Part shown: positions 5,557 to 44,112 of the stretch, piece after piece
Layout: each line of letters begins with the position of its first letter
How positions within the stretch are numbered: the stretch's first letter is position 1
Virus record (IMG/VR): IMGVR_UViG_3300020021_000004
Coordinates: 22,249-86,248 of that record
Direction: 5' to 3' (one strand)
Source: a virus
Length of the DNA: 64,000 nt
Translations under genes and position numbers: made by a program
The notes under the pieces: generated by a model
What the model was told of the DNA's origin: nothing
The model's input: the letters and a program-made list of their open reading frames with translations, nothing else
Databases searched by the model: none

Positions 5557-5557
5557 C

Positions 5558-6571
5558 TCAGCCGCCTTCGTGTTCTTCAAGGGCTAGCACGAGCATGCCC
5601 TCCGCCACCGCTTGCAAGGGATCCTTGGCTTGACGGACTTCAGTGATCTGGATCGGGAATTTCTTCCGGACTAGTTCGAACTCTTCCCTAAAGATGTCCA
5701 TGAAGCCCTCGGCTTTCGTGGTCCCTCCCGATACGATGAACGGAATGGGTTCCGGGAGTGAAACATCGTTCGACACCTTCTTGAATTGAGCGGCGATGTT
5801 TTGGAGGCTGTAGTTGATGAGCGAGCGAACGTAGAGCACGATCGCCTGTTCCTCACGGCCCGCGGGAGCCAAAAGGTTGATGCCCTTCTCTTTGACGGCA
5901 CACATCTGACTCGCCGTCTTACCGACCGCCTTAGCCGATTGTGCGTCGATCCAGTCACCGCCACGAGCGAGAGCGAACTCCATGCCCTTGCTGGCTTGGT
6001 AGCTCAAAGCGATATTGGCCATACCGGCTCCAAAGCTCACGGCGAGACCCGAAAAGGTCTCGTCAGCGCATTGGCTGTAAATGATAGCCATCGCCTCATT
6101 CATCGGGTGAGCGTTGTAGCCCCGGTCCCGGATGATCTTTCGAAAGACTTCCGTGTGGAAGATGACGTCCTGAGAAGGGTCGTCGATAGGAGGAGCAGGC
6201 ACGCTGTAGAAGCAGTGCTCCCCTTCTTCGGAGGGTTCGTCGAGGACGTTATGGACCAGCAGACCTAGGATGGCTTGAGCATCCATCTCACCAGCAGAGA
6301 TCACGCCTCGGCTGAGGGGACGGCGAGCCTCTCGTTTGAAGAGGTTGGCCATCGTAAGGGCTGAGTCACCGAGGACAACCAAGTTGCCGTCCTGCTCGAT
6401 GTAGTTCACCTTCGACATCTTGAGGGAGCGCTTGGCATCCATCTCCAAGTCGAGGAAGGCGTCTCGGACACGCTTGTAGGCCGTCTTGCCGCTCTTCTTG
6501 CGGGCAGAGACAATGTTCATCGTCCCGATGTCGAGGCCCACCCCCAACTGGTCTTGCTCAGCTTTGCTCAT
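5558..6571 (-). CDS. Actin-like ATPase (MreB/MamK/FtsA superfamily)
   Basis: Phosphate-1 GLDIGTMN, connect-1 NEAMA, phosphate-2 SFGAGM, GGDWID, adenosine motif IVSGGTTKAEG, connect-2 DPLQAVAEG. Confidence 0.85.
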   Translation of the reverse strand: MSKAEQDQLGVGLDIGTMNIVSARKKSGKTAYKRVRDAFLDLEMDAKRSLKMSKVNYIEQDGNLVVLGDSALTMANLFKREARRPLSRGVISAGEMDAQAILGLLVHNVLDEPSEEGEHCFYSVPAPPIDDPSQDVIFHTEVFRKIIRDRGYNAHPMNEAMAIIYSQCADETFSGLAVSFGAGMANIALSYQASKGMEFALARGGDWIDAQSAKAVGKTASQMCAVKEKGINLLAPAGREEQAIVLYVRSLINYSLQNIAAQFKKVSNDVSLPEPIPFIVSGGTTKAEGFMDIFREEFELVRKKFPIQITEVRQAKDPLQAVAEGMLVLALEEHEGG

Positions 6572-6602: not shown

Positions 6603-7259
6603 TCAGCCGCGGTTGTAGCTGTAGATCGCGACTGGTGGAGCTGTGAGGGCCTCAGGAGTCCCCCGCTGCTGAAGCAAGTAGACGAAGCCCTCGTGCTTGT
6701 CCGCTACCCCTTCAAGCAGATTTGAAGTGCCGTGTGTCAACGCATCGGCACTATCGAAAGCCGCTATCACAAGGCCCACGAGCCTTAGAATGGCTAGCTC
6801 ACCCCGAAGGCTCGACGACACCATCTCGTCCGGAGTGCTGGGCTGCCCGCATTGCTGCACGAACGTCAAAGCAAGGGATGCCTGCACGTGCGCCAAGATG
6901 GCCGGCTTACCTAGCCCCACCATACGTTCCGCCACCTGGTCGATGAACTCCAAGGACTCGTTGTACAGCCGCTCGAAGAGCAGGTGGTCGGCATAGAAGG
7001 CTCGACCCTTGGTGCTCCAGTGATGGGTCTGGTGCAAAAGAGCCGCTCCCTGAAGGGCACCCAGGAGAGATGTCATGGACGCCCCTTCAGGAACCGCAGC
7101 CACTTTGGCGCTCTTGACGAACGCCTTGATGTCGGACCGTTGCTTCGAGCTGAGGACCACCGGCTGATAGGGCATTCCCGGCAAATAGGGCGGCCCGTGC
7201 CTGAGGGCGTCGTATTCGGTCGGGGTGTGCCAAAGCACTCGGGAGGTCTCGTCGTCCAT
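6603..7259 (-). CDS. dps: Dps/ferritin-like protein
   Basis: HQTHHWSTKGRAFYADHLLFERLY...IDQVAER matches the Dps ferroxidase motif (HW..G..F...H...E...D..AER). Carries N- and C-terminal extensions. Confidence 0.8.
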   Translation of the reverse strand: MDDETSRVLWHTPTEYDALRHGPPYLPGMPYQPVVLSSKQRSDIKAFVKSAKVAAVPEGASMTSLLGALQGAALLHQTHHWSTKGRAFYADHLLFERLYNESLEFIDQVAERMVGLGKPAILAHVQASLALTFVQQCGQPSTPDEMVSSSLRGELAILRLVGLVIAAFDSADALTHGTSNLLEGVADKHEGFVYLLQQRGTPEALTAPPVAIYSYNRG

Positions 7260-8337: not shown

Positions 8338-9353
8338 CAAGCCCACCGTTCCGTAAGCGGGTGCCACAAACGAAGGAGTCGTCGTTTCTCAGCACGGACG
8401 TCGGAGACCACCCCCAATAAGTGATCTAGGGCCCACCCACTTTTAAGCTCTGTCTCTGAGTATCGTATTACCGAGTACCCGAGAGCATAGTAGGCTTCTG
8501 CTGTAAGGGTGTCGTCCTGAACACGTCGAGCAGCATCTCCGAAGGCAAACCGAGGGCCATGGAAGGCTTCCCCGTCGCACAACACTACAATCTTATGCAG
8601 CCCTAGATCAATCTTGAGGTCGGCCTCACGAGGAACAAGAGTCCCTTGAATGGGTACAGCTTGCCAAACATTCAGAATAGGGTGTAGGCCGTGCTTTGAG
8701 AGGGCCTCAGCAAAGTCTGCCTCAAGCTTACAAGTCCCCCCATACAAGCGTTTGAGCCGAGCCGCCTTTGCTGAAGGAGCCAAACGTGCGTAATTCTTAT
8801 GAGCAACACTTAAGTTGATCCGCCCAACAGAAGACTTCCGCTCTTGACTCCACTTGAAGTAGCCTGCCACCCCCAAGATGTCTTCGGCAATTGTTCGAAA
8901 AACTTTGTAGGTCAGACCTAAGTCTCGCAGGACACCTTGAACAGGAGTCGTAGTTTGAAGCAAACCCCGTACGGCTTCGTAGGTGTTGTCTCCTCGGGAC
9001 CATTTGAACTGAAGGTCGTTCAAACCCACCCATCGAGCTTTGGAAGAAACTCTCACCCTAACATCGGCCGAAATCTCAGGCTTCCATTCCTCATAAGCCT
9101 TCTTACCCAAGAGTAGGTATTGAGACTCACAACGAGGACACCGCTTTGAGTGCTGCTCGGCCTTTGAGCTTACGGCCCAGACACCTCCACACTTTCTGCA
9201 TCGAAGGGTTGCCCTGTACTGTTGTCTCCAAGCCAACCAATCTGCTTTAAGCAGCAGGTGTGAAGAATCCGAATTGTGACGAAGGTGGCCTGCCAACCCA
9301 CGATAATTGTGGATCATTTTAGCACATACCCGACACGGCCCTAAAAATTGCAT
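8337..9353 (-). CDS. Putative free-standing homing endonuclease: Zn fingers plus Vsr/DUF559-like nuclease
   Basis: N-terminal CRVC..H...H, CRKC and CPRC. C-terminal EADLKI...VVLCDGEAFHG...GYSVIRYSE is DUF559/Vsr-type. Visibly more AT-rich than the flanks and inserted between neck genes. Confidence 0.7.
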   Translation of the reverse strand: MQFLGPCRVCAKMIHNYRGLAGHLRHNSDSSHLLLKADWLAWRQQYRATLRCRKCGGVWAVSSKAEQHSKRCPRCESQYLLLGKKAYEEWKPEISADVRVRVSSKARWVGLNDLQFKWSRGDNTYEAVRGLLQTTTPVQGVLRDLGLTYKVFRTIAEDILGVAGYFKWSQERKSSVGRINLSVAHKNYARLAPSAKAARLKRLYGGTCKLEADFAEALSKHGLHPILNVWQAVPIQGTLVPREADLKIDLGLHKIVVLCDGEAFHGPRFAFGDAARRVQDDTLTAEAYYALGYSVIRYSETELKSGWALDHLLGVVSDVRAEKRRLLRLWHPLTERWA

Positions 9354-10743
9354 CTACAATATGCGGGGCAAAAAGGAGAATACCGTAGGTGATGTTCTCC
9401 CAGGCGATGGTGCGGCCTCTCAGCTCACGTTCATCCGGGATGTTGGTTTTGTCAGTGATCTGAGCCGGAGAGTTAGCCGGGGGTACTGCCGCGTTGACCT
9501 GATTGGCCAAGTGCCGACTCGGGTTGTCGATCGGTACCCTGTATCGGATGTCCTTCTCGTCGAGATGGCCGAGCATCCCGTTCTGCTGAAGGACCATCCC
9601 ACGGTTGGTCTGCACCTGTACGGCTCCAACGCTGTACCGCTCACCGTTGAGCTTCACCACGAAGTCTCGTTGGGACAGTAGGGGCGAAGGGCCCGTCCAG
9701 AAGTCGTACGTGTGTTCGACCGTGCGGCCCGTGTCTTTTTGCGAGATCTTCTTCTCCCCGTTGTCGGGAGCCAGAAGGATGTCGTAAGGGCCTTCGTAGC
9801 CGCCGAGGATGCCCGTGCCGTAACATTTGAGGCAGTCGTTGAGAGGCTGTTGATTGGTGGCCGCGTAAAAGCAAGAGCAGGTAACGCCTACTTGCTTGCG
9901 GATGTAGAGCTTCACCCGCTCCCCACCCTGTTCAAGGATCCAACGATTCCTTCGAACGCCTTCACGCCAAATATAGTCGATTTTCTCGATCTCGTAGCTC
10001 GAGGTGAAGGCTGCCCTGTCCAGGGGCGTCTCCAAAAGCTCCGTGGGATCGTTGGGCCCACGCTCAGACGCAATGAGGTGACCTACCGTCGTCAGGCGGT
10101 AGAAGACCCGCTGCACCAAGTCGGTCCGCAAGAACGACCGTGTATGGCGATACGTTACCGTCACCGTCGTTCCTGGATCAGGCAGCACACTCGGGTCCCG
10201 GGTCTGAAGACCTACGTTGGGGTAATGATTGGGGTCGATTTCAATCTCCCCCGCCTCACCCAGGATGCTGAGAATCTTCACCGTCACGCCGTCGATACGG
10301 ACCTCCACGTCCTCCACGTTTGACGTAGGAAGCTTTTGCGAGCCCTCTTTGACGATGGGATAGCGAGTCGTCCGAAAGACGTACCGGGGCGCCTCTAGCT
10401 CAGCTGCGGCACCGAAGCCCCGCATGAGCCACTGGTCGTCCGTCACTTCTTCGTCGATCACCAAGACGTTGTCGGTCCGATCCCGCATGAAATTCGCTCC
10501 AAGCGGGTACTCGTTCACCCTGTCGTAGGGCCCGAACTCAGAGTCAAAGCTTCGGTAGATGTTGACCCCACAGATCTGGAACCTGCCGTTCAGGGCCATA
10601 TCTGAGGGATCGGTCCACACTAGGTCGAAAACACCAGGCTGATACCCGCTCGTGAGGAACAGGTTCAAAGGTGGAACTGGCCAAGGAGTCTTGGTCAGTT
10701 CCAGCAATGACGGCTCGCGGTCCCGATTTGAAGCGTAGGACAT
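9319..10743 (-). CDS. Putative head-closure/neck protein with Zn-binding motif
   Basis: GGERVKLYIRK...CSC...CLKCYGTGILGGY motif, typical of neck proteins of large myoviruses. FN3-like N-terminus (LVWTDP...GVNIYRS). Confidence 0.6.
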   Translation of the reverse strand: MSYASNRDREPSLLELTKTPWPVPPLNLFLTSGYQPGVFDLVWTDPSDMALNGRFQICGVNIYRSFDSEFGPYDRVNEYPLGANFMRDRTDNVLVIDEEVTDDQWLMRGFGAAAELEAPRYVFRTTRYPIVKEGSQKLPTSNVEDVEVRIDGVTVKILSILGEAGEIEIDPNHYPNVGLQTRDPSVLPDPGTTVTVTYRHTRSFLRTDLVQRVFYRLTTVGHLIASERGPNDPTELLETPLDRAAFTSSYEIEKIDYIWREGVRRNRWILEQGGERVKLYIRKQVGVTCSCFYAATNQQPLNDCLKCYGTGILGGYEGPYDILLAPDNGEKKISQKDTGRTVEHTYDFWTGPSPLLSQRDFVVKLNGERYSVGAVQVQTNRGMVLQQNGMLGHLDEKDIRYRVPIDNPSRHLANQVNAAVPPANSPAQITDKTNIPDERELRGRTIAWENITYGILLFAPHIVDAIFRAVSGMC

Positions 10744-10770
10744 CTTACCAGATGCCTTCCAAGAAGGGGA

Positions 10771-11082
10771 TTAGACGGCCACGGCAGGGGGCGGCACGGG
10801 GGCCGTGTCGTCCGCCGTGCGCGTGATCTTGCCCGTCCGGGCGTCGATCTCGACCTGCACGTTAGGCGCGATACCCCGCTCCACGAGGAATCCCTCGAAG
10901 AGTCGGTTGCGTTGGTCATCGAGCTTCTTCACCCCAGCTAGCAGCTGGATCTTGTCCTGCTCCAACGAAAGCAGGGTGTCGGCGAATCGCTGTCGGGCTT
11001 CCTGTACTCGGCGAAGCTGTTCAAGAGTTTCGGAGTCTACAGGGTCCTCGATTGTCAGAGGACGTTTCTCGGCTTGGCTCAT
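10771..11082 (-). CDS. Small coiled-coil hypothetical protein
   Basis: ATG 11082 (MSQAEKRP) preceded by AAGGAG. Confidence 0.65.
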   Translation of the reverse strand: MSQAEKRPLTIEDPVDSETLEQLRRVQEARQRFADTLLSLEQDKIQLLAGVKKLDDQRNRLFEGFLVERGIAPNVQVEIDARTGKITRTADDTAPVPPPAVAV

Positions 11083-11135
11083 TTGGCTCTCCTTTTCATC
11101 TGCCCTTCCCAAAGGGAGGGGATGAAGAGCCAAAT

Positions 11136-11145
11136 CGATAAAAGG
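11136..11145 (-). promoter_or_regulatory. Candidate late-promoter motif CCTTTTATCG
   Basis: The identical 10-mer also lies in intergenic DNA at 34099-34108 and 53731-53740. Confidence 0.55.
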
Positions 11146-11146
11146 A

Positions 11147-11422
11147 CTAGTCGATCGAAGCGCGGGCTAACCTGCGGTAATGCCTCGAAAGGACTTGCAG
11201 GAACTGCTCGAACTGCACCAAATCGATGTCGTGCTTTTGCAGCAAGCGAACCCGGCGGTCATCCTCGTTGATGTTTGGACAGTCTTTGCGATGGCGATAA
11301 TGGGCTCGTTGGCAGACCGCACACACCCCAAGCTGCCCCCGTCGTTGGACACACCCTCGCTGGTGGGCTCGAAGTTCAGGGTGGGTCGTGGCCTGAAAAC
11401 CACAAATGCATGATCCCGTCAC
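11147..11422 (-). CDS. Small Cys/His zinc-finger protein (probably leaderless)
   Basis: CICG...LRAH...C and CAVC..H..H...C. GTG start 6 nt after the GGTG-TATGTC promoter-like motif. Confidence 0.55.
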   Translation of the reverse strand: MTGSCICGFQATTHPELRAHQRGCVQRRGQLGVCAVCQRAHYRHRKDCPNINEDDRRVRLLQKHDIDLVQFEQFLQVLSRHYRRLARASID

Positions 11423-11516
11423 CCCTCGGACATACACCAACGGACAGGATCAAGAATCCCACAAAACAAGGAATTCGTCTTGCCAAATACCCCTATGAAA
11501 CCCGCTAGTTGGCGAA

Positions 11517-12416
11517 TCAGAATCCGATGAACTTCTGAGGGCTCAAGACACCCGCCCCCACGTAAGGGCCGAACGAACTTCTGATCCCAATTCCGAACCT
11601 GGGCTGCTGCAAACCGCCGATGATCTTCACCGTCTGCTTGGCACGTTCGAGCTGACTGTCGAACTGGTCCTTGACGGTCTGGAAGGCGCTCTCGTACTTG
11701 CTCGACTTATCGATGCTGAGACTGACGCCTCCGATGCTGTACTCGAACTCGTCAGCAATCCAGTTCGACATCAAGGCCAAGAAGGCGTACATCATCGCCC
11801 CGTTGAGGACCACAGTACGCCACTCTGGATAATTGCGAACCAAGATGTCGCAGTTGGGGATCGGCGTCCTAGGCGGAGCGGCCGACACCATGTCGAGACC
11901 GTTCTGCAAGTACTCCTGTAGCTCGTAGTCCTCCCAGATGTACCCGAATACCTTGTTGTACTGCCGGATCGTCTCTTCGTGAGCTGGCGGACGAAAGTGG
12001 TAATTTCGGTCGGGATTGTTGTCCCGAAGAAGGATGCGAAGCCGGCGGATGAGGTCGGTCTCGCAGGGTGTGAAGCACCCAGCCGCTCCGTTGCTGTCCG
12101 TCGCCTTATCGATGACGTTGAACTCTTGGACCACCTGATGAACAGGGCCCCCCACCATCTCACGGAAGGTCCAGCGAACGCGGTAGCTCCCCACGTTGGC
12201 GTCCAGCGGGATGATGACGCTTGCGTAATAGTGCCCCACACTGTCGTTGGCGGGATCTCGACGAGGGATGCCCAGGAGGGCCTCTTGACCTGTCGTGACA
12301 TCGTAAAGCGCGTAGGTGATTTCCGACACGTTGGTCGGATGCCCCGCCGCGTTGTCGAGGCAAATATCGAGGTCCTTCGTACCGAGCTGCTGACCTCTGT
12401 AGAACGCTGTGGACAT
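11517..12416 (-). CDS. Head-tail adaptor with N-terminal Ig-like domain
   Basis: Helical adaptor-like C-terminal half (LIRRLRILLRD...IWEDYEL...YSIGGVSLSIDKS) and a beta-sandwich N-terminal ~100 aa. Confidence 0.65.
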   Translation of the reverse strand: MSTAFYRGQQLGTKDLDICLDNAAGHPTNVSEITYALYDVTTGQEALLGIPRRDPANDSVGHYYASVIIPLDANVGSYRVRWTFREMVGGPVHQVVQEFNVIDKATDSNGAAGCFTPCETDLIRRLRILLRDNNPDRNYHFRPPAHEETIRQYNKVFGYIWEDYELQEYLQNGLDMVSAAPPRTPIPNCDILVRNYPEWRTVVLNGAMMYAFLALMSNWIADEFEYSIGGVSLSIDKSSKYESAFQTVKDQFDSQLERAKQTVKIIGGLQQPRFGIGIRSSFGPYVGAGVLSPQKFIGF

Positions 12417-12451
12417 GCTTCAATCCTCACGATCAATCAATAAAAAGGGCG

Positions 12452-15400
12452 TCACTCCCACCCGTGCTTGATGACGCGGGGTGGCTGGAACTTCTCGACA
12501 GGAGCTGCGTCCTGAACCAAAAAGGGCTGCTCCACGAACTGAAGAGGGGAACCGTAGGTCTTTTGGATTTCCCAACGGATGAGCCACTGACCGGGCTGAC
12601 CCTGCTCACCCGCCAAACCCACCACATAGTATTCACCCACGCCAGGGCCCACCACTGCCTTCTTACGACCTCCGACCGGCATCGGGACCCCAGAGGCTGC
12701 GATCTGGAAGAACGTGTAATAGACCGCCACAGGGCTGTACATACCCTGTCGATCCGCGAGCCGGAGACACAGATCCCTTGCCGTGAGAGTTTGAAGGTAC
12801 CGGAAGGTCTTGGAAGGTCCGACGGGGGTCGGCTTGGGCTGAACCCCGTTGTTGTACACACGTACGATGCAGTCGTCGAAGATCTGCACCGCTTCTGCGG
12901 GAAGGCGGGTGTAGTTGACCTGAACGAAGAGGGCGTCCGAAACACCCATCACGTCCGAAACTGTCCGGCTCTGCTCCTTGTCGACTAGGAGTAGATCCGT
13001 CAGATCGAGGCTGTCGATGACCCTGCGGATGTAGTCGGTCGAAGCCTGAAGCTGATCGGCAACAACCAGAGCGTCCGACAGGTCAATGAAGATCGCGAGC
13101 CCGGCCGCTACGTCATCTGTGACGCTGACCGTGTCCTGGACGGTCGCATCCTTCTCGGTAGAGAGAGTGATCGAGTCCGTGACACTGACGGTGTCTTGGC
13201 CTGCACGAATGTAATCGGTCGAAGCTTGGAACTGCTCGGTGACGACCAGAGCGTCCGAGGCCGACCGGACGTAGCTAACGATCTTCGAGAAACTATCGGT
13301 GATGTCGATCGCGTCTTGGACAGCAACCCCGCGTTCAGCAAAGATCTGAACTTCGTCCGTAACATCAACGACGTCTTGTACGGTTCGAACGTAGTCGGTC
13401 GAAGCCCTGAGGGTCTCGGTAATGCTGATCGTGTCCGTAAGATTACGGGCGTACTCAGCCACCAGAACCGCCTGGTCCGTAACACTGATGGCATCCGAAA
13501 CCGTCTTGCGGACTTCAATCGAAATGGCGTCCGTGACCGACACAATGTCGGAAGCCGTGCGGACGTACTGGCTCGAAGAAGAGAGCTGATCCGCTAGAAC
13601 CAGGGCATCCTGGAGCCTGCGGATGTAGTCGGTGTTCGGAGAGAGCTGCTCAACGACCGTGATCGTGTCGGACCCTGAGCGGCTCAGCTCTCGAGTAACC
13701 GCTACACTGTCGGTAACCGAGGCACTATCGGACGCCGCCCGCTCGTAGGTGAAGCTCGTGGCGGCACTGTCGGCAACAGCAACAGCGTCCGAAGCCGTCT
13801 TCGAGTATTGGGTGGACGGAGATAGCTGGTCCGTGATGCTAACAGCGTCAGTGACCAGGACAGAAAGACCCTGGAAAAGGTCGACCGTCAAAGTCTCGGT
13901 GACGCTGATGGTGTCGCTAACGGCACGGGCTATTTCGAACGAAGCACTCGCGGTGTCGGTGATGCTGACCGAATCCGAAAGGGTGCGGTTGTAGACCGAG
14001 CTGATCGATGTCTGGTCAGTGACCGAGACGATGTCCGAAAGGGTGCGGCCGTACTCCGCCGCCAAGGTAAGGGTGTCGGTGACGCTGGTTGCGTCAGCCA
14101 GCGTCTTGTCGACTTCGACAGAGAGGGCGTCCGTAACGCTGATGGCATCGCTGACGGTGCGGACCTTCTCCAGGCCCGCAAACACCGCTTCTGTGGTGCT
14201 GAAGGTGTCCGAAAGGGTGCGAGAGAAATCTCCATTGAGGGACGTCTGGTCAGTGACCGAGACCGTATCGGAGACGTTCTTGTGAACCTCAATAGAGGTT
14301 GCGTCGGTAACGACGATCGTGTCGTTGACGGCACGCGACACCTCGAAAGAGGCATTAGCGGTGTCAGAGGTGCTGACAGCGTCCGAGCCCGTACGGGCGT
14401 ATACCGTCGATAGTGTCGTCTGGTCGGTGACCGAAAGAGTGTCGGAAGCCGACCGGTCCTTGTCCTGGCTCGGGATGTCAGTGTCGGTGACCGAGATCGT
14501 GTCACTGAGGCTCTTGGAGAACTCCAGGGATGTGACACTTTGGTCAGTAACGCTGACGGCGTCGCTGACGGTGCGGACCTTCTCCAAGCCCGCGGAGAGG
14601 GTTTCGGTGACCGCTATGCTGTCGGAGAACGAACGCCCGTACTCTACCGAAAGAGCGGTGCTGTCGGTGACGCTGACGCTGTCATTGACTTCCGTCTCTT
14701 GTTCGGTAGAAGCCTCGTCGGTAACGCTGACCGTATCACTGAGGGTGCGGTTGTACTGTGCCGCCAACAGCAGTTGGTCGGTGACCGAAATGGCGTCCTG
14801 CGGGAACGCTTTCTCGATAAGGGCCTGATCGGTAGCCGAGAGGACATCCGAAAGGGTGCGAGAGAACTCGACGGAGCTAACCGTGGAATCTGTGACGCTG
14901 ATGGCGTCTGACCTGAAGACTTCCTCATCCAGGACCTGGTCGGTGATGCTGACCGTGTCCGAGAGGGTGCGAGAGAAATCTGCCGAACGGCTCGTGCTGT
15001 CGGTGAGCGAGACGACATCGACCCCGAAGATGGTCTCGACCAACAACTGGTCGCTGACCGTGACCGAGTCCGAAAGGGCGATGTCGTTGTTGGCGGTCTC
15101 CGACTCATCAGTGGTGCTGATGGTGTCCGCAGCACTTCTGGAAATTTCAAGCGAAAGAGTCGTGCTGTCGGTGACAGAAACAGCATCGTTGACCGTGACG
15201 GCTTCGAACGCACTGGTCGTCGCGTCCGACTCATCCGTGGTGCTGACGGTGTCCGAAAGAGTGCGGCTGTACTGGGCCGCCAACGTGAGAGTGTCGCTGA
15301 CGCTGACGGCATCCTGTGGGAACGCCTTCTCAGTCAGGGTCTGGTCAGTGGCCGAGATCGCATCACTGAGTGTGCGAGAGAACTCGACGGAACTGAAGGC

Positions 15401-18400
15401 GGAGTCCGTGGCACTGATAGCATCTTGGGGGAAGCTGGTCTCAAGGGTCGCCTGATCCGTAACGCTGATCGAATCGGTGAGCGTTCGACCATACACCGAA
15501 GCCAAGGTGGTTTGGTCGGTGACCGAAACGGCGTCCTGCGGGAAGCTGGTCTCACGGAAGAGCTGGTCCGTAGCCGAGACCGAGTCACTAGCAGACCGGC
15601 TGTACTGAATCGAAAGGGCGGTGCTGTCGGCGACCGAAACAGCGTCTTGGACGAACAGGGTTTCGATCAACAACTGGTCGGTGATCGAGATCGAATCGCT
15701 GAAGGTGCGGCTGTACTGTGCCGAAAGGGCGGTGCTGTCCGTAACGCTGACGGCGTCTTGGGGGAAGCTGGTCTCACGGAAGGTCTGATCAGTGATTGCT
15801 ACGCTATCGGAAACTGACCTACTGTACTGAATCGAAAGGGTTGTGCTATCGGTGACCGAAACGGCGTCCTGCGGGAAGGCCGTCTCACGAAGTGTCTGGT
15901 CCGTAGCCGAGACCGAGTCCGCAAGGGTCCGACCATATTCAGCTGAAGTGCTGGTGTTGTCGGTGACCGAGACCGTATCCGAAGGGAAGCTGGTCTCACG
16001 AAGGATTTGGTCCGTGACCGCCAAGGTGTCGGAGGCGGACCGAACGTAGGACGTCTCAGCAGTAAGCTGATCCGTGACAACCACGATGTCGTTAGCAAAC
16101 GCATCCAGGACTGCGTTGGTGGTGGCTTCAATGTCGTCAGTAAGGGTGATCGAGTCACTGAGAGTGATCGAATACTGTGCCGAAAGGGTCGTGCTGTCGG
16201 TGACCGAGACCGTGTCCGACCCGCTCCTACCGTACTCAGCCGAGGTGCTGGTGCTGTCGGCGGAGCTGACGCTGTCTTGAGGGAAGCTGGTCTCACGGAG
16301 GGTTTGATCCGTGACGGTGATCGAGTCGCTGAGCGACCGTCCGAACACAAATGAAGTGCTCGTCGTATCAGTGACGCTGACCGCATCCTGAACGAAACCC
16401 GTTTCGATCGTTGTTTGATCGGTGAACGTTACGCTGTCGCTGAGCGACCTGCTGTACTGGATCGAAAGGGTCGTCTGATCCGTGACACTGAAGGCGTCTT
16501 GCGGAAAGACGGTGTCGACCAGCTTCTGGTCAGTGACACTGACGTTGTCCGAGAGCGTGATCGAGTACTGAAGGGACGTCGTAGCGGTATCGGTGACGCT
16601 GACGCTGTCCTGACGGAAAACACTGTCGACCAACAACTGGTCGCTGACCGTGACCGAGTCCGCAAGCGTGCGGCCATACTCCACCGAGGTCTTGATCGTA
16701 TCGCTGACGCTAACAGCGTCTTGGGGGAAGCTGGTCTCACGAAGCGTCTGATCAGTGACCGAAACTGCGTCCGAAATGGTGCGGTTGTACTGTGCCGAAA
16801 GGGTGATGCTGTCTGTAACGCTGACAGCATCTTGGGGGAAGCTGGTCTCACGAAGCGTCTGATCAGTGACCGCTACGCTGTCGCTGAGCGACCGGCTGTA
16901 CTGGGCCGAAACAAGGGTCGAATCCGTAACGTCGATCGCATCAACGTTGAAAGTGGTCTCGACCAACAACTGGTCGCTGACCGTGACCGAATCACTTAGC
17001 GACCTAGAGAAATCTAGGGAGGCGGTGATCGAATCCGTGACAGCTGCGCTATCCGAAAGCGTCTTAGCGTACTCTAGGGACGTTGACGGGCTGTCGGTGA
17101 CCGAGACCGCGTCCGAGAGGCTGACGTCGGTGATGCGGCCTGTGGTGGCCGACACATCATCGGCAACCGAAAGACTGTCCGAAAGGCTGCGGCCGTACTC
17201 GACCGAAAGAGTTGAACTGTCGGTAACGCTGACGGCATCTTGGGGGAAGCTGGTCTCACGGAAGGTCTGATCCGCGAGGGTGATCGAATCACTGAGAGTG
17301 ATCGAGTACTGTGCCGAAAGGGTCGTGCTGTCGGTGACCGAAACAGCGTCTTGGACGAACAGGGTCTCGACCAACAACTGGTCGCTGACCGCTACACTGT
17401 CGCTAAGAGTGCGGTTGTACTGTGCCGAAAGAGTGGTGCTGTCTGTAGTCGAGACGGCGTCCTGCGGGAAGCTGGTCTCACGAAGGGTCTGGTCAGTGAC
17501 CGCCAGGGTGTCGCTGAGAGACCGGCTGTACTGAATCGAAAGGGTTGTGCTATCGGTGACCGAAACGACGTCCTGCGGGAAGCTAGTCTCGCGGAGGGTC
17601 TGGTCAGTGGCCGCTACACTGTCGCTGAGAGTGCGGTTGTAAGCGAAGGCTGTCGTCGTCGAATCCGTGACATCGATCGCATCAACGTTAAAAGTGGTCT
17701 CGATCAGCGTCTGATCAGTGACCGCTACGCTGTCATTGATCGACCGGCTGTACTGGATCGAAAGAGTCGTCGAATCCGTGACACTGGCGCTGTCCGAAAG
17801 GCTTCGATCAACAGTGATCGCCAACTGGTCGGTGACGCTCGCAGTGTCACTGAGGGTGCGGTCGTATTGGGCCGAAGTTGCGATCGAATCCGCGACCGCT
17901 ACGCTGTCCGACAGAGTACGAGCGTAAACCGTCGAGGCTGAGGTGCTGTCAGTGACGTCGGCCGCATCCGAAACACTGACGTCGGTTGCCGAGGCCAGGC
18001 TATCGGTGACGGTGATCGTGTCCGAGAGGCTGATGCTGTACGAGAGCGAAAGGCTGGTCTGGTCAGTGACCGAAATCGTCTCAGCCGGAGAAATGAGGTC
18101 GAAGTCACCCGATGTCGCGACGCTGATGCTATCGCTGAGAGACCTGGAGTACTGGATCGAGGTGCTGGTCTGGTCAGTAACGCTGACGCTGTCCTGACGG
18201 AAGACCGTTTCGACCAACAGCTGATCGCTGACCGCTATGCTGTCGCTGAGGGTGCGGTTGTACTGTGCCGAAAGGGTCGTACTATCTGTAGTCGAGACCG
18301 TGTCCTGCGGGAAGCTGGTCTCGCGGAGGATCTGATCCGTGACCGCTACGCTGTCACTGAGAGACCTGCTGTACTGGACGGACAGCGTGGTGCTGTCCGT

Positions 18401-19114
18401 GACATCGATCGCATCGATGTTGAAGCTAGTCTCGACCAACAGCTGATCAGTAATGGCTACGGTGTCACTGATCGACCTGGAGAAGGTCAGGCTCGGAGCC
18501 GCCGAATCGGTGACCGCTGCGGTATCGCTGAGGGTGATCGAGTACTGAAGGGACAGCTGAGTGCTGTCCGTGATCGAGGGTGCATCAGAGACACTGATGT
18601 CTGCGATCTGGCCCGCAGCAATCGTTAGATCCTCGGTGATGGTTACCGAGTCGCTGAGGGTGCGGTTGTACTGAGCTGAAGTGCTGGAGCTGTCGGTGAC
18701 GCTGACCGCATCCTGAGGAAAGGTCGTCTCACGCAGCGTCTGATCAGTAACCGCTACAGTGTTACTGAGAGTCCGACCATAGACCCAAGAAAGGGTCGTG
18801 CTGTCGGTGACCGAGATCGTGTCCGAGACCGACACGTCGATCGCCGACGGGTGTAGAATCTCGATGACATCACTGTCGGTGATCGAGATTTGATCGCGGG
18901 TGAACTCTTCCAGCAGAGCGCTGCTGGTGACCGCTACAGTATCGGAGAGAACTAGGCTGTAGACCGCAGCAGTGCGGACGCTGTCACTGATGCTGACATC
19001 ATCGTCGGTGATCTCCGCAAAGCCCGACGTTGATACTGAGATAGTATCCGAGACTTTGATGTCGAGTCGGCTCGCACCATTTGCGAAGAGCAGGAAGGAG
19101 CCAAGACCGGCCAT
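12452..19114 (-). CDS. Giant repetitive fibre/backbone protein (2220 aa) with C-terminal Ig-like anchor domain
   Basis: About 2060 aa of D-x-V-x-V-T-D repeats. The last ~120 aa are non-repetitive and align to the N-terminus of 11517..12416. Confidence 0.8.
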   Translation of the reverse strand: MAGLGSFLLFANGASRLDIKVSDTISVSTSGFAEITDDDVSISDSVRTAAVYSLVLSDTVAVTSSALLEEFTRDQISITDSDVIEILHPSAIDVSVSDTISVTDSTTLSWVYGRTLSNTVAVTDQTLRETTFPQDAVSVTDSSSTSAQYNRTLSDSVTITEDLTIAAGQIADISVSDAPSITDSTQLSLQYSITLSDTAAVTDSAAPSLTFSRSISDTVAITDQLLVETSFNIDAIDVTDSTTLSVQYSRSLSDSVAVTDQILRETSFPQDTVSTTDSTTLSAQYNRTLSDSIAVSDQLLVETVFRQDSVSVTDQTSTSIQYSRSLSDSISVATSGDFDLISPAETISVTDQTSLSLSYSISLSDTITVTDSLASATDVSVSDAADVTDSTSASTVYARTLSDSVAVADSIATSAQYDRTLSDTASVTDQLAITVDRSLSDSASVTDSTTLSIQYSRSINDSVAVTDQTLIETTFNVDAIDVTDSTTTAFAYNRTLSDSVAATDQTLRETSFPQDVVSVTDSTTLSIQYSRSLSDTLAVTDQTLRETSFPQDAVSTTDSTTLSAQYNRTLSDSVAVSDQLLVETLFVQDAVSVTDSTTLSAQYSITLSDSITLADQTFRETSFPQDAVSVTDSSTLSVEYGRSLSDSLSVADDVSATTGRITDVSLSDAVSVTDSPSTSLEYAKTLSDSAAVTDSITASLDFSRSLSDSVTVSDQLLVETTFNVDAIDVTDSTLVSAQYSRSLSDSVAVTDQTLRETSFPQDAVSVTDSITLSAQYNRTISDAVSVTDQTLRETSFPQDAVSVSDTIKTSVEYGRTLADSVTVSDQLLVDSVFRQDSVSVTDTATTSLQYSITLSDNVSVTDQKLVDTVFPQDAFSVTDQTTLSIQYSRSLSDSVTFTDQTTIETGFVQDAVSVTDTTSTSFVFGRSLSDSITVTDQTLRETSFPQDSVSSADSTSTSAEYGRSGSDTVSVTDSTTLSAQYSITLSDSITLTDDIEATTNAVLDAFANDIVVVTDQLTAETSYVRSASDTLAVTDQILRETSFPSDTVSVTDNTSTSAEYGRTLADSVSATDQTLRETAFPQDAVSVTDSTTLSIQYSRSVSDSVAITDQTFRETSFPQDAVSVTDSTALSAQYSRTFSDSISITDQLLIETLFVQDAVSVADSTALSIQYSRSASDSVSATDQLFRETSFPQDAVSVTDQTTLASVYGRTLTDSISVTDQATLETSFPQDAISATDSAFSSVEFSRTLSDAISATDQTLTEKAFPQDAVSVSDTLTLAAQYSRTLSDTVSTTDESDATTSAFEAVTVNDAVSVTDSTTLSLEISRSAADTISTTDESETANNDIALSDSVTVSDQLLVETIFGVDVVSLTDSTSRSADFSRTLSDTVSITDQVLDEEVFRSDAISVTDSTVSSVEFSRTLSDVLSATDQALIEKAFPQDAISVTDQLLLAAQYNRTLSDTVSVTDEASTEQETEVNDSVSVTDSTALSVEYGRSFSDSIAVTETLSAGLEKVRTVSDAVSVTDQSVTSLEFSKSLSDTISVTDTDIPSQDKDRSASDTLSVTDQTTLSTVYARTGSDAVSTSDTANASFEVSRAVNDTIVVTDATSIEVHKNVSDTVSVTDQTSLNGDFSRTLSDTFSTTEAVFAGLEKVRTVSDAISVTDALSVEVDKTLADATSVTDTLTLAAEYGRTLSDIVSVTDQTSISSVYNRTLSDSVSITDTASASFEIARAVSDTISVTETLTVDLFQGLSVLVTDAVSITDQLSPSTQYSKTASDAVAVADSAATSFTYERAASDSASVTDSVAVTRELSRSGSDTITVVEQLSPNTDYIRRLQDALVLADQLSSSSQYVRTASDIVSVTDAISIEVRKTVSDAISVTDQAVLVAEYARNLTDTISITETLRASTDYVRTVQDVVDVTDEVQIFAERGVAVQDAIDITDSFSKIVSYVRSASDALVVTEQFQASTDYIRAGQDTVSVTDSITLSTEKDATVQDTVSVTDDVAAGLAIFIDLSDALVVADQLQASTDYIRRVIDSLDLTDLLLVDKEQSRTVSDVMGVSDALFVQVNYTRLPAEAVQIFDDCIVRVYNNGVQPKPTPVGPSKTFRYLQTLTARDLCLRLADRQGMYSPVAVYYTFFQIAASGVPMPVGGRKKAVVGPGVGEYYVVGLAGEQGQPGQWLIRWEIQKTYGSPLQFVEQPFLVQDAAPVEKFQPPRVIKHGWE
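12880..19060 (-). repeat. Coding tandem repeat array, units of 17-20 aa, often forming a 37-aa (111-bp) super-repeat
   Basis: Example unit SDSVAVTDQTLRETSFPQ-DAVSVTDSTTLSAQYNRTL. gaagctggtctc recurs at 15431 and 15542, 111 bp apart. Over 100 units, estimated from length. Confidence 0.9.
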
Positions 19115-19215
19115 CTAAACCCTCAAAAAAGGACGGGCAGTAGCCATCGTTTGACGACCACTGCCCAGACGCAATCGATGTCAATGTCGATGGCGGTCGC
19201 CCAAAAAGCGACCCA

Positions 19216-19473
19216 TTACTGAGTGAACGCCGTGACCTGGTAGTACTGACTTGAGGTCAAGTTGTTGAAGATGGGCTTGATATCCGCGTCCAAGTCAAAG
19301 GCTTCAGTCAATTTGATCCAAAGCAGGGGTTCCGTAGTGATGTTCAGAAGGACTTCGGAAACATTTCCGTTGTAATCCAACGTGTACATGAGCACAGGAA
19401 TTTCGTAACCACCCGCATCTAAAGCAGAGAGCAAGGACGTAGCTTGAGCAGCGTTAACCACAACCTTGATCAT
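19216..19473 (-). CDS. Hypothetical protein (85 aa)
   Basis: ATGA-coupled to 19470..20105. Confidence 0.6.
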   Translation of the reverse strand: MIKVVVNAAQATSLLSALDAGGYEIPVLMYTLDYNGNVSEVLLNITTEPLLWIKLTEAFDLDADIKPIFNNLTSSQYYQVTAFTQ

Positions 19474-20105
19474 ACCGGAACCTCTTCCCAGGTCATCCCG
19501 AAGATGGCCAACGGAGTGGTGCCCGCAGCAGCAATTCCCTGCAAGGAGAGGCAGTTACCGGGCAGCACGATGAACTTGCCATCCGTACGATCCACCATCG
19601 GAGGACCTGGGGCGACAGCGCCACCTGCGAAAGCATTCAAGGTGAACACAGGACGGAGGATGGCTGAGGTAGCGGCTACAGTCGAGCCAGTGAAGATCAA
19701 GCCTTGACCCTGCGTTGGAGACCCAATGCGATTGCTCCTAGGGGTGAGCTGTGTACCACCAGTCGGGTTGGCATTCGTGGTCTGAGGGTTCCAAGCAAGT
19801 ACGACCGTGCCTGCACCCCAGGTACCCGACACATAACCCATGCTGATATCGATCAGCACCAAATTGACAGGAGATCCAATCGGGTTGTAGAGGGTGAAGG
19901 GCGGAGCCGTACCCAACGCAGTACCGGGCGCCACGCCAGCTGCGGCGTTAGTCCCTGAGTAAATGTTGCCGCGGTAGTTGGTCTCGTAGTAGCTGCCATG
20001 GGCATCGGCAACTGCGGTTGACCCATCCTTGAGGAGACGGGGATCCTGAAGAGTGCCGTCCTGAGCAACCACTACGCCAACACGGCCTTGAATTTCGATA
20101 GCCAT
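19470..20105 (-). CDS. Putative fibre-associated beta-sandwich protein, tandem paralogue A
   Basis: Close paralogue of 20137..20775 (MAIEIQGRVG...GMxWEEVPV). Confidence 0.7.
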   Translation of the reverse strand: MAIEIQGRVGVVVAQDGTLQDPRLLKDGSTAVADAHGSYYETNYRGNIYSGTNAAAGVAPGTALGTAPPFTLYNPIGSPVNLVLIDISMGYVSGTWGAGTVVLAWNPQTTNANPTGGTQLTPRSNRIGSPTQGQGLIFTGSTVAATSAILRPVFTLNAFAGGAVAPGPPMVDRTDGKFIVLPGNCLSLQGIAAAGTTPLAIFGMTWEEVPV

Positions 20106-21506: not shown

Positions 21507-22307
21507 TCAGTCGAAGCTCAGCCACCGCCGGTAGCCCCCTAGAACATCAAAAAAGAGTCCGGCATTGACGAGCGAGTCCGTGACCTTGAGGTCATCGCCC
21601 TTTTGACATTCGACCAAACCGGAGTCCGTGAGCGCTATGGTGTCGGTGCTGAGAGTCCGGTCATAGACGATCCCGACCGACATGTTGGGTTCGTCCGCAT
21701 TCGTAGTGACGGTCCCATTGATGGTCCAGTCTGAGGCGTTCCCAGACTGATCCTGTCCGACAGTGGAACCCAAGTCACAAGACAGGTAGTTGGCTAAACC
21801 TAAAGTGACGATTGGAGCCTTCTGAGTCGACTCATTGAAAATTTGTGTCGAGGTAAGGGCTGTGGGTGACGCCCATTCCTTGTAGGCCGAGCACCTTTGG
21901 TGAACCGTGTTGGACAAGAAGCTGTCGAGAAGCTCCCAAGCGTTCACGCCAGAGTTCGTAGAATCAGATTGGGTAGCGGACTGCAAGACAACGTCACCCT
22001 CTTTGCGCCAATAAACCTTGGTGCCGACGCCAGAGGTCGTGACGACGCACACGAAGACCCATCCAGGGTAGCTTCCGGAGTAGAAAGTCTGATAGCCACT
22101 AGGTGCACCTGTGACGGCTAACCCAAGGTCACCAGAAGCACCGAAGGTCCCGTCACCCGTGATGACGGCGTAGTCAGTGGTGTTTGCGGAGAACCGCATC
22201 TGCATGTTGTCACTTACGAATGACAACATGCGGAACCAGCCCATGCTGATGTTGCTGGACCCGAATCTCAGAATGAGAGAACCGGCGGACGCGCTGTCGT
22301 AGCTCAT
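21507..22307 (-). CDS. Concanavalin A/LamG-like domain protein with C-terminal backbone-type repeat
   Basis: WVFVCVV...KVYWR...AYKEW...ALTSTQIF resembles LamG. Tail YDRTLSTDTIALTD. Confidence 0.65.
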   Translation of the reverse strand: MSYDSASAGSLILRFGSSNISMGWFRMLSFVSDNMQMRFSANTTDYAVITGDGTFGASGDLGLAVTGAPSGYQTFYSGSYPGWVFVCVVTTSGVGTKVYWRKEGDVVLQSATQSDSTNSGVNAWELLDSFLSNTVHQRCSAYKEWASPTALTSTQIFNESTQKAPIVTLGLANYLSCDLGSTVGQDQSGNASDWTINGTVTTNADEPNMSVGIVYDRTLSTDTIALTDSGLVECQKGDDLKVTDSLVNAGLFFDVLGGYRRWLSFD

Positions 22308-22332
22308 GAGGATCCTTGAAGACGTGGGGCCA

Positions 22333-23754: not shown

Positions 23755-23757
23755 CGT

Positions 23758-25824: not shown

Positions 25825-25873
25825 AGGTCCCGATCCGCGTAGGCTCCTCTACCTCTGAGGTGTCAAAAGAAAC

Positions 25874-44031: not shown

Positions 44032-44089
44032 TAACGTAGGTATAAACACACCACGTCGAAAAAGTCTACGTGTGTTTATACCTACGTTA
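44032..44089. repeat. Perfect 20-bp inverted repeat, 18-nt spacer
   Basis: taacgtaggtataaacacac (44032-44051) and gtgtgtttatacctacgtta (44070-44089), abutting the GTG start of the fusion gene. Confidence 0.95.
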
Positions 44090-44112
44090 AGTTCCACCTC
44101 AAAAGGGACGTT

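What the first reader, a model, noticed from the sequence alone, without database searches (positions are those of the whole stretch)
11517..12815. C-terminal domain of the giant fibre is a paralogue of the neck adaptor's N-terminal domain
Seen by manual alignment: fibre FRYLQTLTARDLCLRL vs adaptor FYRGQQLGTKDLDICL; GVGEYYV vs SVGHYYA; PGQWLIRWEIQKTYGSPLQFVEQPFLVQD vs VGSYRVRWTFREMVGGPVHQVVQEFNVID. The genes are adjacent. Inference: the fibre is anchored by its C-terminus at the head-tail junction by co-oligomerising with the adaptor's Ig-like domain (collar/whisker position). That is the opposite polarity to normal N-terminally anchored tail fibres.
Basis: partly seen in the sequence, partly recalled or inferred. 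Interest (0 to 1): 0.75.

Follow-up and report, generated by a model that had tools for sequence, protein, structure and literature searches.

The report
Giant phage fibre ends in adaptor-like domain
In an uncultivated huge phage, a 2220-residue repeat protein ends in a small beta-sandwich domain that is a true ancient paralogue of the first domain of the neighbouring head-to-tail adaptor, which suggests (but does not prove) that the filament is held at the neck by its C-terminal end.

Summary
The last ~105 structured residues of the 2220-aa repeat protein (12452-19114, minus strand) are homologous to residues 2-105 of the next gene (11517-12416). BLASTP gives E 2e-5 and profile-profile comparison gives E 5e-26.

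The next gene is a head-to-tail adaptor of the T4 gp13 / T7 gp11 class by fold (Z 9.4-11.0). It carries an extra N-terminal macroglobulin/Ig-like sandwich.

Among 80 related huge-phage loci, 32 carry a strong fibre-type copy. It always lies upstream of the adaptor on the same strand, and always at the very C-terminus of its protein. The N-terminal parts range from about 100 to more than 2800 residues and use unrelated repeats; one begins with a lectin domain. In a quick tree the fibre-type copies fall on one side of a single well-supported branch and mirror the adaptor subtree.

Anchoring by the C-terminus is therefore well supported by comparison. Docking on the adaptor itself is plausible but untested. 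The polarity has a precedent in T4 Hoc.

I rate this a new variant of a known kind, of moderate interest.

The parts
11517..12416 (-). Head-to-tail adaptor gene (P0001, 299 aa)
   Evidence: ORF list and translation. 1645 database homologues, the best 120 of them 66-100% identical at ~296 aa. tblastn hits Tunturi_5 gp319, annotated 'head-tail connector protein', and phage G gp165.
12099..12416 (-). Adaptor N-terminal beta-sandwich domain (aa 1-106)
   Evidence: In the AF2 model, 10-residue blocks over aa 1-100 have pLDDT 79-92 and are all-beta. Nearest folds are macroglobulin/Ig-like domains: 4u48_A Z 9.1, rmsd 2.6, 89 aligned; C3 8cem_F Z 8.7. No Pfam family: 1 of 58 members had one weak hit.
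11517..12068 (-). Adaptor core (aa 117-299) with a conserved C-terminal arm
   Evidence: In the VIA-align wide search, aa 117-273 match solved phage adaptors: Pa223 9nwi_A Z 11.0 (rmsd 2.7, 103 aligned), A4 9k09_d 10.1, KHP30 7wmp_m 9.9, SU10 7z47_A 9.7, T4 gp13 9lu4_D 9.6, P1 connector 9ums_E 7.6. PHROG 17327 'head-tail connector' is weak, E 0.0048. The C-terminal ~30 residues are nearly invariant in A3 but have low pLDDT.
12417..12451 (-). 35-nt spacer between the stop of the giant gene and the adaptor start
   Evidence: Coordinates. In relatives the gap from the fibre-type gene to the called start of the adaptor ORF runs from a 140-nt overlap (L019) to 4829 nt, always on the same strand.
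12452..19114 (-). Giant repeat protein (P0002, 2220 aa)
   Evidence: S+T+D make up 42.6% of residues. PHROG hits lie only within the repeats: phrog_12240 (unknown function) E 9e-12, and phrog_321 E 1.5e-7 with no passing stretch. No significant Pfam family.
12995..19003 (-). Array of about 96 D-x-V-x-V-T-D-like units
   Evidence: A regex count gives 96 hits from aa 38 to about aa 2040. Spacings are mostly 17 (23 times) and 20 (53 times) residues, i.e. a 37-aa super-repeat. TRF finds a 111-nt period at five places.
12503..12814 (-). C-terminal beta-sandwich of the giant protein (aa 2101-2204), paralogue of the adaptor N-domain
   Evidence: In the AF2 model of the last 200 aa, residues 81-180 have block pLDDT 90-96 and are all-beta. 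Folds found are generic sandwiches: 80alpha baseplate 6v8i_BN Z 8.9, NF5 baseplate 9m8o_P 8.6, C3/C4/A2M about 8, Sf14 neck 9c39_I 7.5.
12452..12502 (-). Conserved C-terminal tail ...PRVIKHGWE plus stop
   Evidence: G and W of the terminal K-[YF]-G-W motif are invariant in A2, as is GQPG-x-W inside the domain. The motif recurs at the last residues of the database representatives. Model pLDDT there is about 71.

Best explanation
The window is the structural module of an uncultivated huge phage. Gene 11517-12416 encodes the dodecameric head-to-tail adaptor (T4 gp13 / T7 gp11 class), with an extra N-terminal macroglobulin/Ig-like sandwich expected on the outside of the ring. The gene just upstream belongs to a family built as a variable N-terminal arm, a conserved C-terminal sandwich and a conserved K-Y/F-G-W tail. 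That sandwich arose once, by duplication of the adaptor-type domain at the base of this phage clade, and has been inherited together with the adaptor since.

The most likely mechanism is that the C-terminal sandwich and tail are the virion-attachment module. They would dock at the head-tail junction beside or onto the adaptor's own N-domains, as fibritin docks on a peripheral domain of T4 gp13. The N-terminal arm would project outward as a collar or whisker filament. In this phage the arm is about 2000 residues of 17/20-residue beta-type repeats.

Shown: the homology, the adaptor fold, the strictly C-terminal position, the co-inheritance and the variability of the arm. Inferred: virion incorporation, the neck as the site, heterotypic contact with the adaptor domain, and the copy number.
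For: Homology: BLASTP E 2e-5; hhalign 99.7%, E 5.4e-26; the fibre-type profile hits the adaptor at E 2e-19.

Adaptor identity: the ten best VIA-align rows for aa 117-273 are all phage portal-tail, tail or neck entries, Z 9.3-11.0. Portal, protease, major head protein and terminase lie upstream on the same strand.

Conserved C-terminal module: 32 of 80 related loci carry a strong fibre-type copy (over 120 bits). In all 32 it lies upstream on the adaptor's strand and ends within 7 residues of the ORF end. Host proteins are 167-339 aa in 24 loci and 674 to over 2824 aa in 8. Of the best 150 of 411 database representatives, 139 have the domain within 8 residues of the C-terminus; lengths run 79-2817 aa with median 249.

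Variable arms: the repeat types are unrelated between lineages. L023 starts with a Laminin_G_3 lectin domain, E 3.6e-12, aa 9-168, i.e. a binding head at the far end from the conserved domain.

Co-inheritance: the 25 fibre-type rows lie on one side of a single branch (SH-aLRT 98), and the subtree pairings mirror the adaptor subtree. They correspond to 25 of the 27 rows of one adaptor clade and to none outside it.

Domain next to the adaptor in other arrangements: it is fused to the adaptor in Tunturi_5 gp319; it stands alone upstream in LR745208; it lies at the N-terminus of phage G gp160, five genes from the domain-less adaptor gp165; and it is tandemly doubled on the adaptor in P0247.

Precedent: twelve peripheral domains of T4 gp13 hold the fibritin fibres (passages of PMC12929587). 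The Milano neck 1 sandwich contacts the capsid and the collar (passages of PMC10491603).
Against: There is no direct evidence that the giant protein is in the virion, and no multimer model, proteomics or image. No isolate of this clade is in the phage collection.

The sandwich fold is generic: Z 7-9 to many unrelated proteins, with best rows in siphophage baseplates.

Adaptors of more distant relatives keep the N-domain without any fibre-type gene within 10 kb (26 of the 63 loci with at least 5 kb upstream). So the adaptor domain has a function of its own and need not be a fibre dock.

Gene adjacency is not strict (a 140-nt overlap of the called ORFs in L019 to 4829 nt elsewhere). The tree is a quick one on 117 columns; the careful search did not finish. 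The repeat part was not modelled with confidence, so 'filament' rests on composition and periodicity only.
Confidence: 0.5

Rival explanations
1. Hoc-like decoration. The C-terminal sandwich binds the capsid shell (major head protein), at the portal vertex or all over the head, not the adaptor. The adaptor N-domain is its paralogue because it too contacts the capsid, as the Milano neck 1 sandwich does.
For: [quoted passage not shown] The Milano neck 1 sandwich binds the five-fold capsid vertex. The adaptor N-domain is kept in relatives without a fibre-type gene. The BFVD list includes a weak row for the T2 outer capsid protein, E 4.4e-3.
Against: The fibre-type gene stays next to the adaptor gene, not next to the major head protein gene at 44187-45065. 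No sequence match to Hoc families was found. The BFVD row is weak and lies among generic Ig-like hits.
Confidence: 0.2
2. Promiscuous accessory Ig-like domain. The sandwich is one of the Ig-like modules that phages shuffle among structural proteins for weak adhesion to cell surfaces. The filament is anchored elsewhere, for example by its N-terminus, so its polarity is ordinary.
For: The fold is a generic Ig/macroglobulin sandwich. Shuffling of Ig-like domains among phage structural proteins is established knowledge (Fraser et al. 2006, recalled, not read here). The N-termini of the window, L003 and L008 giant proteins look alike over the first ~10 residues. In phage G gp160 the domain is N-terminal.
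Against: The tree shows a single origin and co-divergence with the adaptor rather than repeated transfer. Loop residues (GQPG-x-W) and the terminal G-W are invariant, and the domain is far more conserved than the rest of the protein. It is at the extreme C-terminus in 139 of 150 representatives. N-terminal parts are unrelated between lineages, and one is a lectin head.
Confidence: 0.15
3. C-terminal assembly or chaperone module. The conserved C-terminus promotes folding or oligomerisation of the repeat arm and is perhaps removed afterwards, like the intramolecular chaperone domains of some tail fibres and spikes.
For: Conserved C-terminal modules on otherwise variable fibres are known for that class (recalled knowledge, not read here). 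The domain is always terminal.
Against: There is no Pfam hit to Peptidase_S74 or any other family. The fold is a beta-sandwich homologous to a permanent domain of the adaptor. Stand-alone forms of 130-180 aa, with nothing to chaperone, exist upstream of adaptors.
Confidence: 0.05
4. Chance resemblance between two beta-rich segments.
For: Only 26% identity in the pairwise alignment.
Against: Profile-profile E 5.4e-26, reciprocal HMM hits across 80 loci, and the same predicted fold.
Confidence: 0.01

Closest known systems
T4 neck: adaptor gp13 with fibritin (gpWac) collar and whiskers
   Same: The adaptor core has the same fold class (9lu4_D Z 9.6, rmsd 5.2, 116 aligned). In T4, a peripheral domain of each of the 12 gp13 subunits holds a fibre (passages of PMC12929587).
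   Different: That fibritin is a trimeric coiled coil attached by its N-terminus is recalled. Here the arm is a Ser/Thr/Asp-rich beta-type repeat, the conserved end is C-terminal, and the attachment module is a paralogue of the adaptor's own domain. The adaptor's extra domain here is an N-terminal sandwich, not T4 domain III.
T7 gp11-type podophage adaptors (Pa223, A4, KHP30, SU10, VP1, GP4, Carin-1)
   Same: These are the best structural matches to aa 117-273, Z 9.5-11.0. That these adaptors are the docking site of the tail fibres is recalled.
   Different: Those fibres dock by their N-termini. Those adaptors are about 190-230 aa and have no N-terminal macroglobulin-like domain. The present phage is a huge phage whose nearest isolated relative by this protein, Tunturi_5, has a gene annotated as tail sheath five genes downstream of its connector gene.
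Agrobacterium phage Milano neck 1 (gp14) and collar (gp13)
   Same: A beta-sandwich on the adaptor forms the outer ring and contacts both the capsid vertex and an all-beta collar protein.
   Different: The Milano sandwich is inserted in the helical domain rather than N-terminal. The collar is a closed sheath of four 15-mer rings without fibres and is held by disulfides. No paralogy between collar and adaptor is reported in the passages I read.
T4 Hoc
   Same: A conserved C-terminal attachment domain with a variable N-terminal projecting string (abstract of PMC10385173, listing).
   Different: Hoc binds capsid hexamers and is about 40 kDa with three Ig domains. No sequence relation was found. 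Here the anchor is related to the adaptor, and the arm can exceed 2800 residues.
Bacillus phage G gp160 / gp165, and the LR745208 165-aa ORF
   Same: The same domain family lies near the same adaptor family: adN profile E 2e-5 for gp160 and 1.6e-37 for LR745208; BFVD row E 7.4e-4 for gp160.
   Different: The domain is not fused to the adaptor (gp165 is 179 aa). In gp160 it is N-terminal and followed by CarboxypepD_reg-like sandwiches. These genomes have no fibre-type copy.

Membership tests
Head-to-tail adaptor, T4 gp13 / T7 gp11 class (neck 1) | Helical-bundle core superposable on solved adaptors | tested here: met
   Model aa 117-273: ten best rows are phage portal-tail, tail or neck entries, Z 9.3-11.0 (e.g. 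9nwi_A Z 11.0, rmsd 2.7, 103 aligned). The tool notes that helical models can reach such Z by chance, but the rows are consistently adaptors.
Head-to-tail adaptor, T4 gp13 / T7 gp11 class (neck 1) | C-terminal arm that inserts between portal clip subunits | not testable with these tools
   The last ~30 residues are nearly invariant in A3 but have pLDDT under 50 as a monomer. No complex prediction was available.
Head-to-tail adaptor, T4 gp13 / T7 gp11 class (neck 1) | Dodecameric ring under the portal | not testable with these tools
   Needs a multimer model or a map.
Head-to-tail adaptor, T4 gp13 / T7 gp11 class (neck 1) | Sequence membership in an annotated connector family | tested here: inconclusive
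   phrog_17327 'head-tail connector' E 0.0048. No Pfam family. No PDB sequence match. Tunturi_5 gp319, annotated as connector, is 29% identical over 93% of the query.
Head-to-tail adaptor, T4 gp13 / T7 gp11 class (neck 1) | Gene placed between head genes and tail genes | tested here: met
   Terminase, portal, protease and major head protein lie upstream on the same strand. In Tunturi_5 the homologue precedes genes annotated as tail terminator and sheath.
Macroglobulin/Ig-like beta-sandwich | Fold similarity of both domains | tested here: met
   Adaptor N-domain: 4u48_A Z 9.1, C3 8.7. Fibre domain: C3 8.1, C4 8.0, 4u48_A 7.9. This is a generic fold and implies no function.
T4 fibritin-type neck fibre | Trimeric coiled-coil shaft with an N-terminal neck-binding part | tested here: inconclusive
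   No coiled-coil prediction was run. The composition (42.6% S+T+D, 17/20-residue units) and the C-terminal position of the conserved domain argue against it. I file it as working like a neck fibre, not as a member.
Hoc-type decoration protein | [quoted passage not shown] | tested here: inconclusive
   No Pfam or PHROG family for the domain. Only a weak BFVD row for the T2 outer capsid protein, E 4.4e-3.
Fibre C-terminal intramolecular chaperone (Peptidase_S74) | Match to the family profile | tested here: not met
   Pfam scan of the whole protein at E up to 1 lists only one insignificant, unrelated family.

The most novel reading that the evidence does not exclude
Docking by domain mimicry. 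A clade of huge phages duplicated the outer domain of its own head-to-tail adaptor and put the copy at the C-terminus of a separate protein. The copy slots into or onto the adaptor's outer ring and so carries an evolvable N-terminal arm at the neck. The arm ranges from about 100 residues to filaments of more than 2800, in one lineage tipped by a lectin, and here perhaps loaded with the four tagged lectin-like proteins encoded upstream. This would be a new way to attach fibres to a virion and a new kind of giant neck filament.
Probability: 0.4. Interest if true: 0.7.

Novelty: new variant of a known kind. Interest (0 to 1): 0.5.

Why it matters
Huge phages of this clade are known only from metagenomes, and their virion architecture is unknown. 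The result gives a testable anchor for the largest open reading frame of the structural module. It defines a new conserved domain family with no Pfam or PHROG model: 411 representatives at 50% identity. It also shows a clean case of duplication followed by co-inheritance between an adaptor and an appendage. If docking at the neck holds, it shows how a phage can add long, freely evolving filaments to the head-tail junction by copying a piece of the adaptor itself. The terminal module could then be used to recognise such appendage genes in metagenomes. If the protein binds elsewhere, the paralogy still marks which surfaces of the adaptor domain are worth probing.

Tried and rejected
Sequence family searches for the domain gave nothing useful:
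- Pfam and PHROGs on both whole proteins.
- PHROGs on the 25 members of A2: 1 member, E 0.0023.
- Pfam on the 58 members of A1: 1 member, E 0.0037.
- A PDB sequence search with the adaptor profile gave only chance rows, lipoprotein lipase at E 0.3.
- Foldseek of the two-domain adaptor model against the PDB gave no row at E <= 0.001. The VIA-align wide search was needed to find the adaptor fold.

Searches for cultured relatives also failed. megablast of 9000-20000 against the phage collection found no match. tblastn of the fibre domain there found no match. So no isolate is available to look at.

I searched for further copies of the domain. There are none in the rest of the window or in the own 86-kb record. 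The whole genomes of Tunturi_5 and LR745208 hold one copy each, and phage G holds none at the fibre-type profile's threshold.

Literature: searches for an adaptor with an Ig/macroglobulin domain or for C-terminally attached neck fibres, for phage G virion data and for Tunturi_5 turned up no description of this domain pair. That is a statement about those five searches of the held library only. I did not ask for supplementary files, so virion proteomics tables of jumbo phages that might list homologues were not seen.

I considered a covariation test between the two domains and rejected it: there are only 25 distinct pairs. I also considered reading the fold of the repeat arm from the model and rejected it because pLDDT there is under 60. 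An early notebook count of '44 of 80' loci with a second copy was wrong.
Full report
WHAT IS THERE. All long ORFs of the window lie on the minus strand. PHROG scans place a large terminase (57858-59858), portal (53751-55598), head protease (47227-48783) and major head protein (44187-45065) upstream of the finding. So this is the morphogenesis module of a tailed phage. The identical adaptor protein is on record from a contig of 404,268 bases. The record held here is an 86,248-base fragment, of which the window is bases 22249-86248. The finding covers the end of a 2220-aa ORF (12452-19114, P0002) and the next ORF, 35 nt downstream (11517-12416, P0001, 299 aa).

- BLASTP aligns P0001 residues 2-105 with P0002 residues 2101-2204: 27/105 identical, 34.3 bits, E 2e-5.
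- Within the window each domain finds only itself and the other copy.
- I fetched 80 related loci from IMG/VR with adaptor identities of 46-87%.
- I aligned 58 distinct adaptor N-domains (A1) and 25 distinct C-terminal domains of upstream proteins (A2).
- hhalign of A1 against A2 gives probability 99.7% and E 5.4e-26 over 105 columns.
- The A2 profile finds the adaptor N-domain in the phage's own record at E 2e-19, and nothing else.
- Chance is excluded.

WHAT THE DOWNSTREAM GENE IS. The protein has 1645 database relatives; the 120 listed are 66-100% identical and about 296 aa long. An AlphaFold2 model built on 56 sequences has two parts: an all-beta N-domain (residues 1-106, block pLDDT 79-92) and a helical part (117-269).

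Foldseek found no row at E <= 0.001. The exhaustive VIA-align search did better:
- Residues 117-273 match solved phage adaptors: Pa223 9nwi_A Z 11.0, cyanophage A4 10.1, KHP30 9.9, SU10 9.7, VP1 9.7, GP4 9.6, T4 gp13 9.6, Carin-1 9.5, and further down PhiM1, P1 and DEV.
- Residues 1-106 match macroglobulin/Ig-like domains: Salmonella alpha-2-macroglobulin Z 9.1, C3 8.7.

By sequence the protein is related to three phage records:
- Tunturi_5 gp319, annotated head-tail connector and followed by tail terminator and sheath genes.
- An uncultured 485-kb phage, LR745208.
- Bacillus phage G gp165.

So the label 'adaptor' is right, and the N-terminal sandwich is an addition to the common adaptor core.

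WHAT THE UPSTREAM PROTEIN IS. P0002 is 42.6% Ser+Thr+Asp. It carries 96 D-x-V-x-V-T-D-like units spaced mostly 17 or 20 residues apart between residues 38 and about 2040, with a 111-nt DNA period. It has no significant Pfam family. A model of the last 200 residues, built on 116 sequences, gives a confident sandwich for residues 2101-2201 (pLDDT 90-96), a moderately confident tail, and nothing reliable for the repeats. Fold searches return generic sandwiches. The best are small proteins of siphophage baseplates (Z 8.9, 8.6), then complement/macroglobulin domains, and a chain of the Sf14 neck at Z 7.5. The viral library gives phage G gp160 among weak rows.

COMPARATIVE ANATOMY, THE MAIN NEW EVIDENCE. 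An HMM scan of all six frames of the 80 loci finds a second copy of the domain in 43. In every case it lies upstream of the adaptor on the same strand.

- 32 of the 43 are strong fibre-type copies (over 120 bits). All 32 end within 7 residues of the ORF end.
- By first start codon, the host proteins are 167-339 aa in 24 loci. They are 674, 674, over 907, 1378, 1378, 1457, 2773 and over 2824 aa in the other 8.
- The other 11 are weak, small ORFs (about 130-250 aa) in more distant relatives.
- Of the 63 loci with at least 5 kb of upstream sequence, 37 have a second copy and 26 do not.

A profile search of 1.84 billion representatives with A2 finds 411 proteins at E <= 0.001, 207 at <= 1e-10 and 100 at <= 1e-30. 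Among the best 150:
- 139 have the domain within 8 residues of the C-terminus.
- Lengths run from 79 to 2817 aa, with median 249 and 13 proteins of 500 aa or more.
- The last residues repeat a K-[YF]-G-W-x motif.

In A2 the loop GQPG-x-W and the terminal G-W are invariant.

The N-terminal parts are not alike. They include Gly-rich short repeats in the ~250-aa forms, Pro-rich repeats in L029/L031, Ser/Thr/Asp repeats in the window, L003 and L008, and a Laminin_G_3 lectin domain at residues 9-168 of the L023 protein (E 3.6e-12). A binding head at one end, a repeat shaft, and a conserved module at the other end is the layout of an appendage attached by the conserved end.

HISTORY. I built a quick maximum-likelihood tree of 89 domain sequences: 58 adaptor-type, 25 fibre-type and 6 small upstream ORFs.
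- All fibre-type domains fall on one side of a branch with SH-aLRT 98.
- The pairings inside mirror those of the adaptors of the same loci: window+L003, L005+L007, L015+L019, L026+L028, L029+L031, L023+L053, L011+L013, and L010+L014+L044.
- The 25 fibre-type rows belong to 25 of the 27 rows of one adaptor clade. The two without are L018, which has only 987 nt upstream, and L025.

This fits one duplication at the base of that clade followed by joint vertical inheritance. Giant arms arose at least three times within it. Two caveats apply: only 117 columns were used, and the careful search did not finish.

THE DOMAIN IN OTHER ARRANGEMENTS.
- In Tunturi_5 it is fused to the adaptor, as here (adN profile E 1e-17).
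- In LR745208 it is a separate 165-aa ORF upstream (E 1.6e-37), and the adaptor match there covers only the core.
- In phage G the adaptor gp165 is 179 aa without the domain. Five genes upstream, gp160 has the domain at its N-terminus (E 2e-5), followed by CarboxypepD_reg-like sandwiches.
- One database adaptor (P0247, 411 aa) has two tandem adaptor-type copies before the core.

The domain therefore keeps company with the adaptor whether fused, doubled or free. This is fusion-type evidence for a place at the neck. It also shows that extensions can sit on either side of the domain.

MECHANISM. The best-supported reading is that the sandwich plus tail is the attachment module and the repeat arm projects outward. 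The site is most likely the head-tail junction. The evidence for the neck as the site is paralogy, synteny, co-inheritance and two precedents:
- T4 gp13 holds twelve fibritin fibres on a peripheral domain (passages read).
- The Milano neck 1 sandwich touches both capsid and collar (passages read).

Whether the copy binds the adaptor's N-domain, replaces it at a shared partner, or binds the capsid rim cannot be decided here. I put 0.5 on the neck-anchored reading as a whole. The rivals are:
- 0.2 for a Hoc-like capsid decoration.
- 0.15 for a merely accessory Ig-like domain with the anchor elsewhere.
- 0.05 for an assembly module.
- About 0.01 for chance.

The homology and the adaptor call are confirmed. 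'Co-oligomerising' is an inference that remains open. The 'opposite polarity' is supported by comparison but is not unprecedented, since Hoc is built the same way (abstract seen in the listing). The candidate third partner at 30788-31174 shows no relation to the domain and has no family hit.

NOVELTY. No Pfam or PHROG family covers the domain. Five literature searches of the held library found no description of an adaptor-paralogous fibre anchor. Fibres on adaptors, Ig-like domains on phage proteins and C-terminal anchoring are each known. The new element is their combination, with an anchor copied from the adaptor itself and arms of up to about 2800 residues. I rate it a new variant of a known kind, interest 0.5.

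EARLIER NOTES.
- The repeat filament (e1-6116635) agrees.
- For the tagged lectin-like genes (e1-6116640), I found only one weak match between a tag and the repeats (E 0.005).
- The actin-like gene (e1-6116649) agrees with a strong Volactin match in Pfam.

Noticed in passing
window 5558-6571 (-): A 337-aa protein matches Pfam Volactin (PF25216) at E 9.7e-76 over its whole length: an actin-family protein encoded among the neck and tail genes of a huge phage.
   Followed up: partly
window 21507-26701 (-): Four genes upstream of the giant gene end in short segments resembling the repeat unit (...YD-x-DAGTD-x-x-A-[IV]-TD...). Only one gives a BLASTP match to the repeats: the ORF at 22333, aa 448-467, against P0002 1674-1693, 65% over 20 aa, E 0.005. 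They may be cargo that docks on the filament.
   Followed up: partly
L044 10361-12330; L050 7708-9180; protein P0083: In some relatives the adaptor gene is interrupted. The core match is split by about 1.3 kb in L044 and by about 0.5 kb in L050, where the ORF is 490 aa. P0083 (455 aa) carries PF14890, which I recall as an intein splicing domain. These look like inteins or homing elements in the adaptor gene.
   Followed up: no
window 42097-44145 (-): The 682-aa ORF next to the major head protein gene has LAGLIDADG and HNH homing-endonuclease hits and methyltransferase-like hits. Another HNH endonuclease lies at 26817-27827. Selfish elements are scattered through the structural module.
   Followed up: no
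protein P0247 (411 aa) and P0263 (270 aa, fragment): These are adaptors with two tandem copies of the N-terminal sandwich before the core.
   Followed up: yes
L085 5768-6916 (Bacillus phage G gp160): gp160 carries the adaptor-type sandwich at its N-terminus and CarboxypepD_reg-like domains after it. The phage G adaptor homologue gp165 lacks the domain.
   Followed up: partly
window 6603-7259 (-): A 218-aa protein hits a PHROG DNA-binding family (phrog_3636, E 3.4e-14) and, more weakly, a starvation-inducible regulator family (phrog_858, E 0.0012). It sits inside the neck/tail gene block.
   Followed up: no
window 2-3580 and 4399-5580 (-): Both ORFs give weak DUF2460 hits (E 5.6e-6 and 0.009, below the curated cut-off). 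Their role in the tail was not settled.
   Followed up: no
L004 9075-9578: The closest short relative of the giant protein's domain is a 167-aa ORF on a long branch that lacks the terminal K-Y-G-W motif. It is probably a decayed remnant of a giant gene.
   Followed up: no
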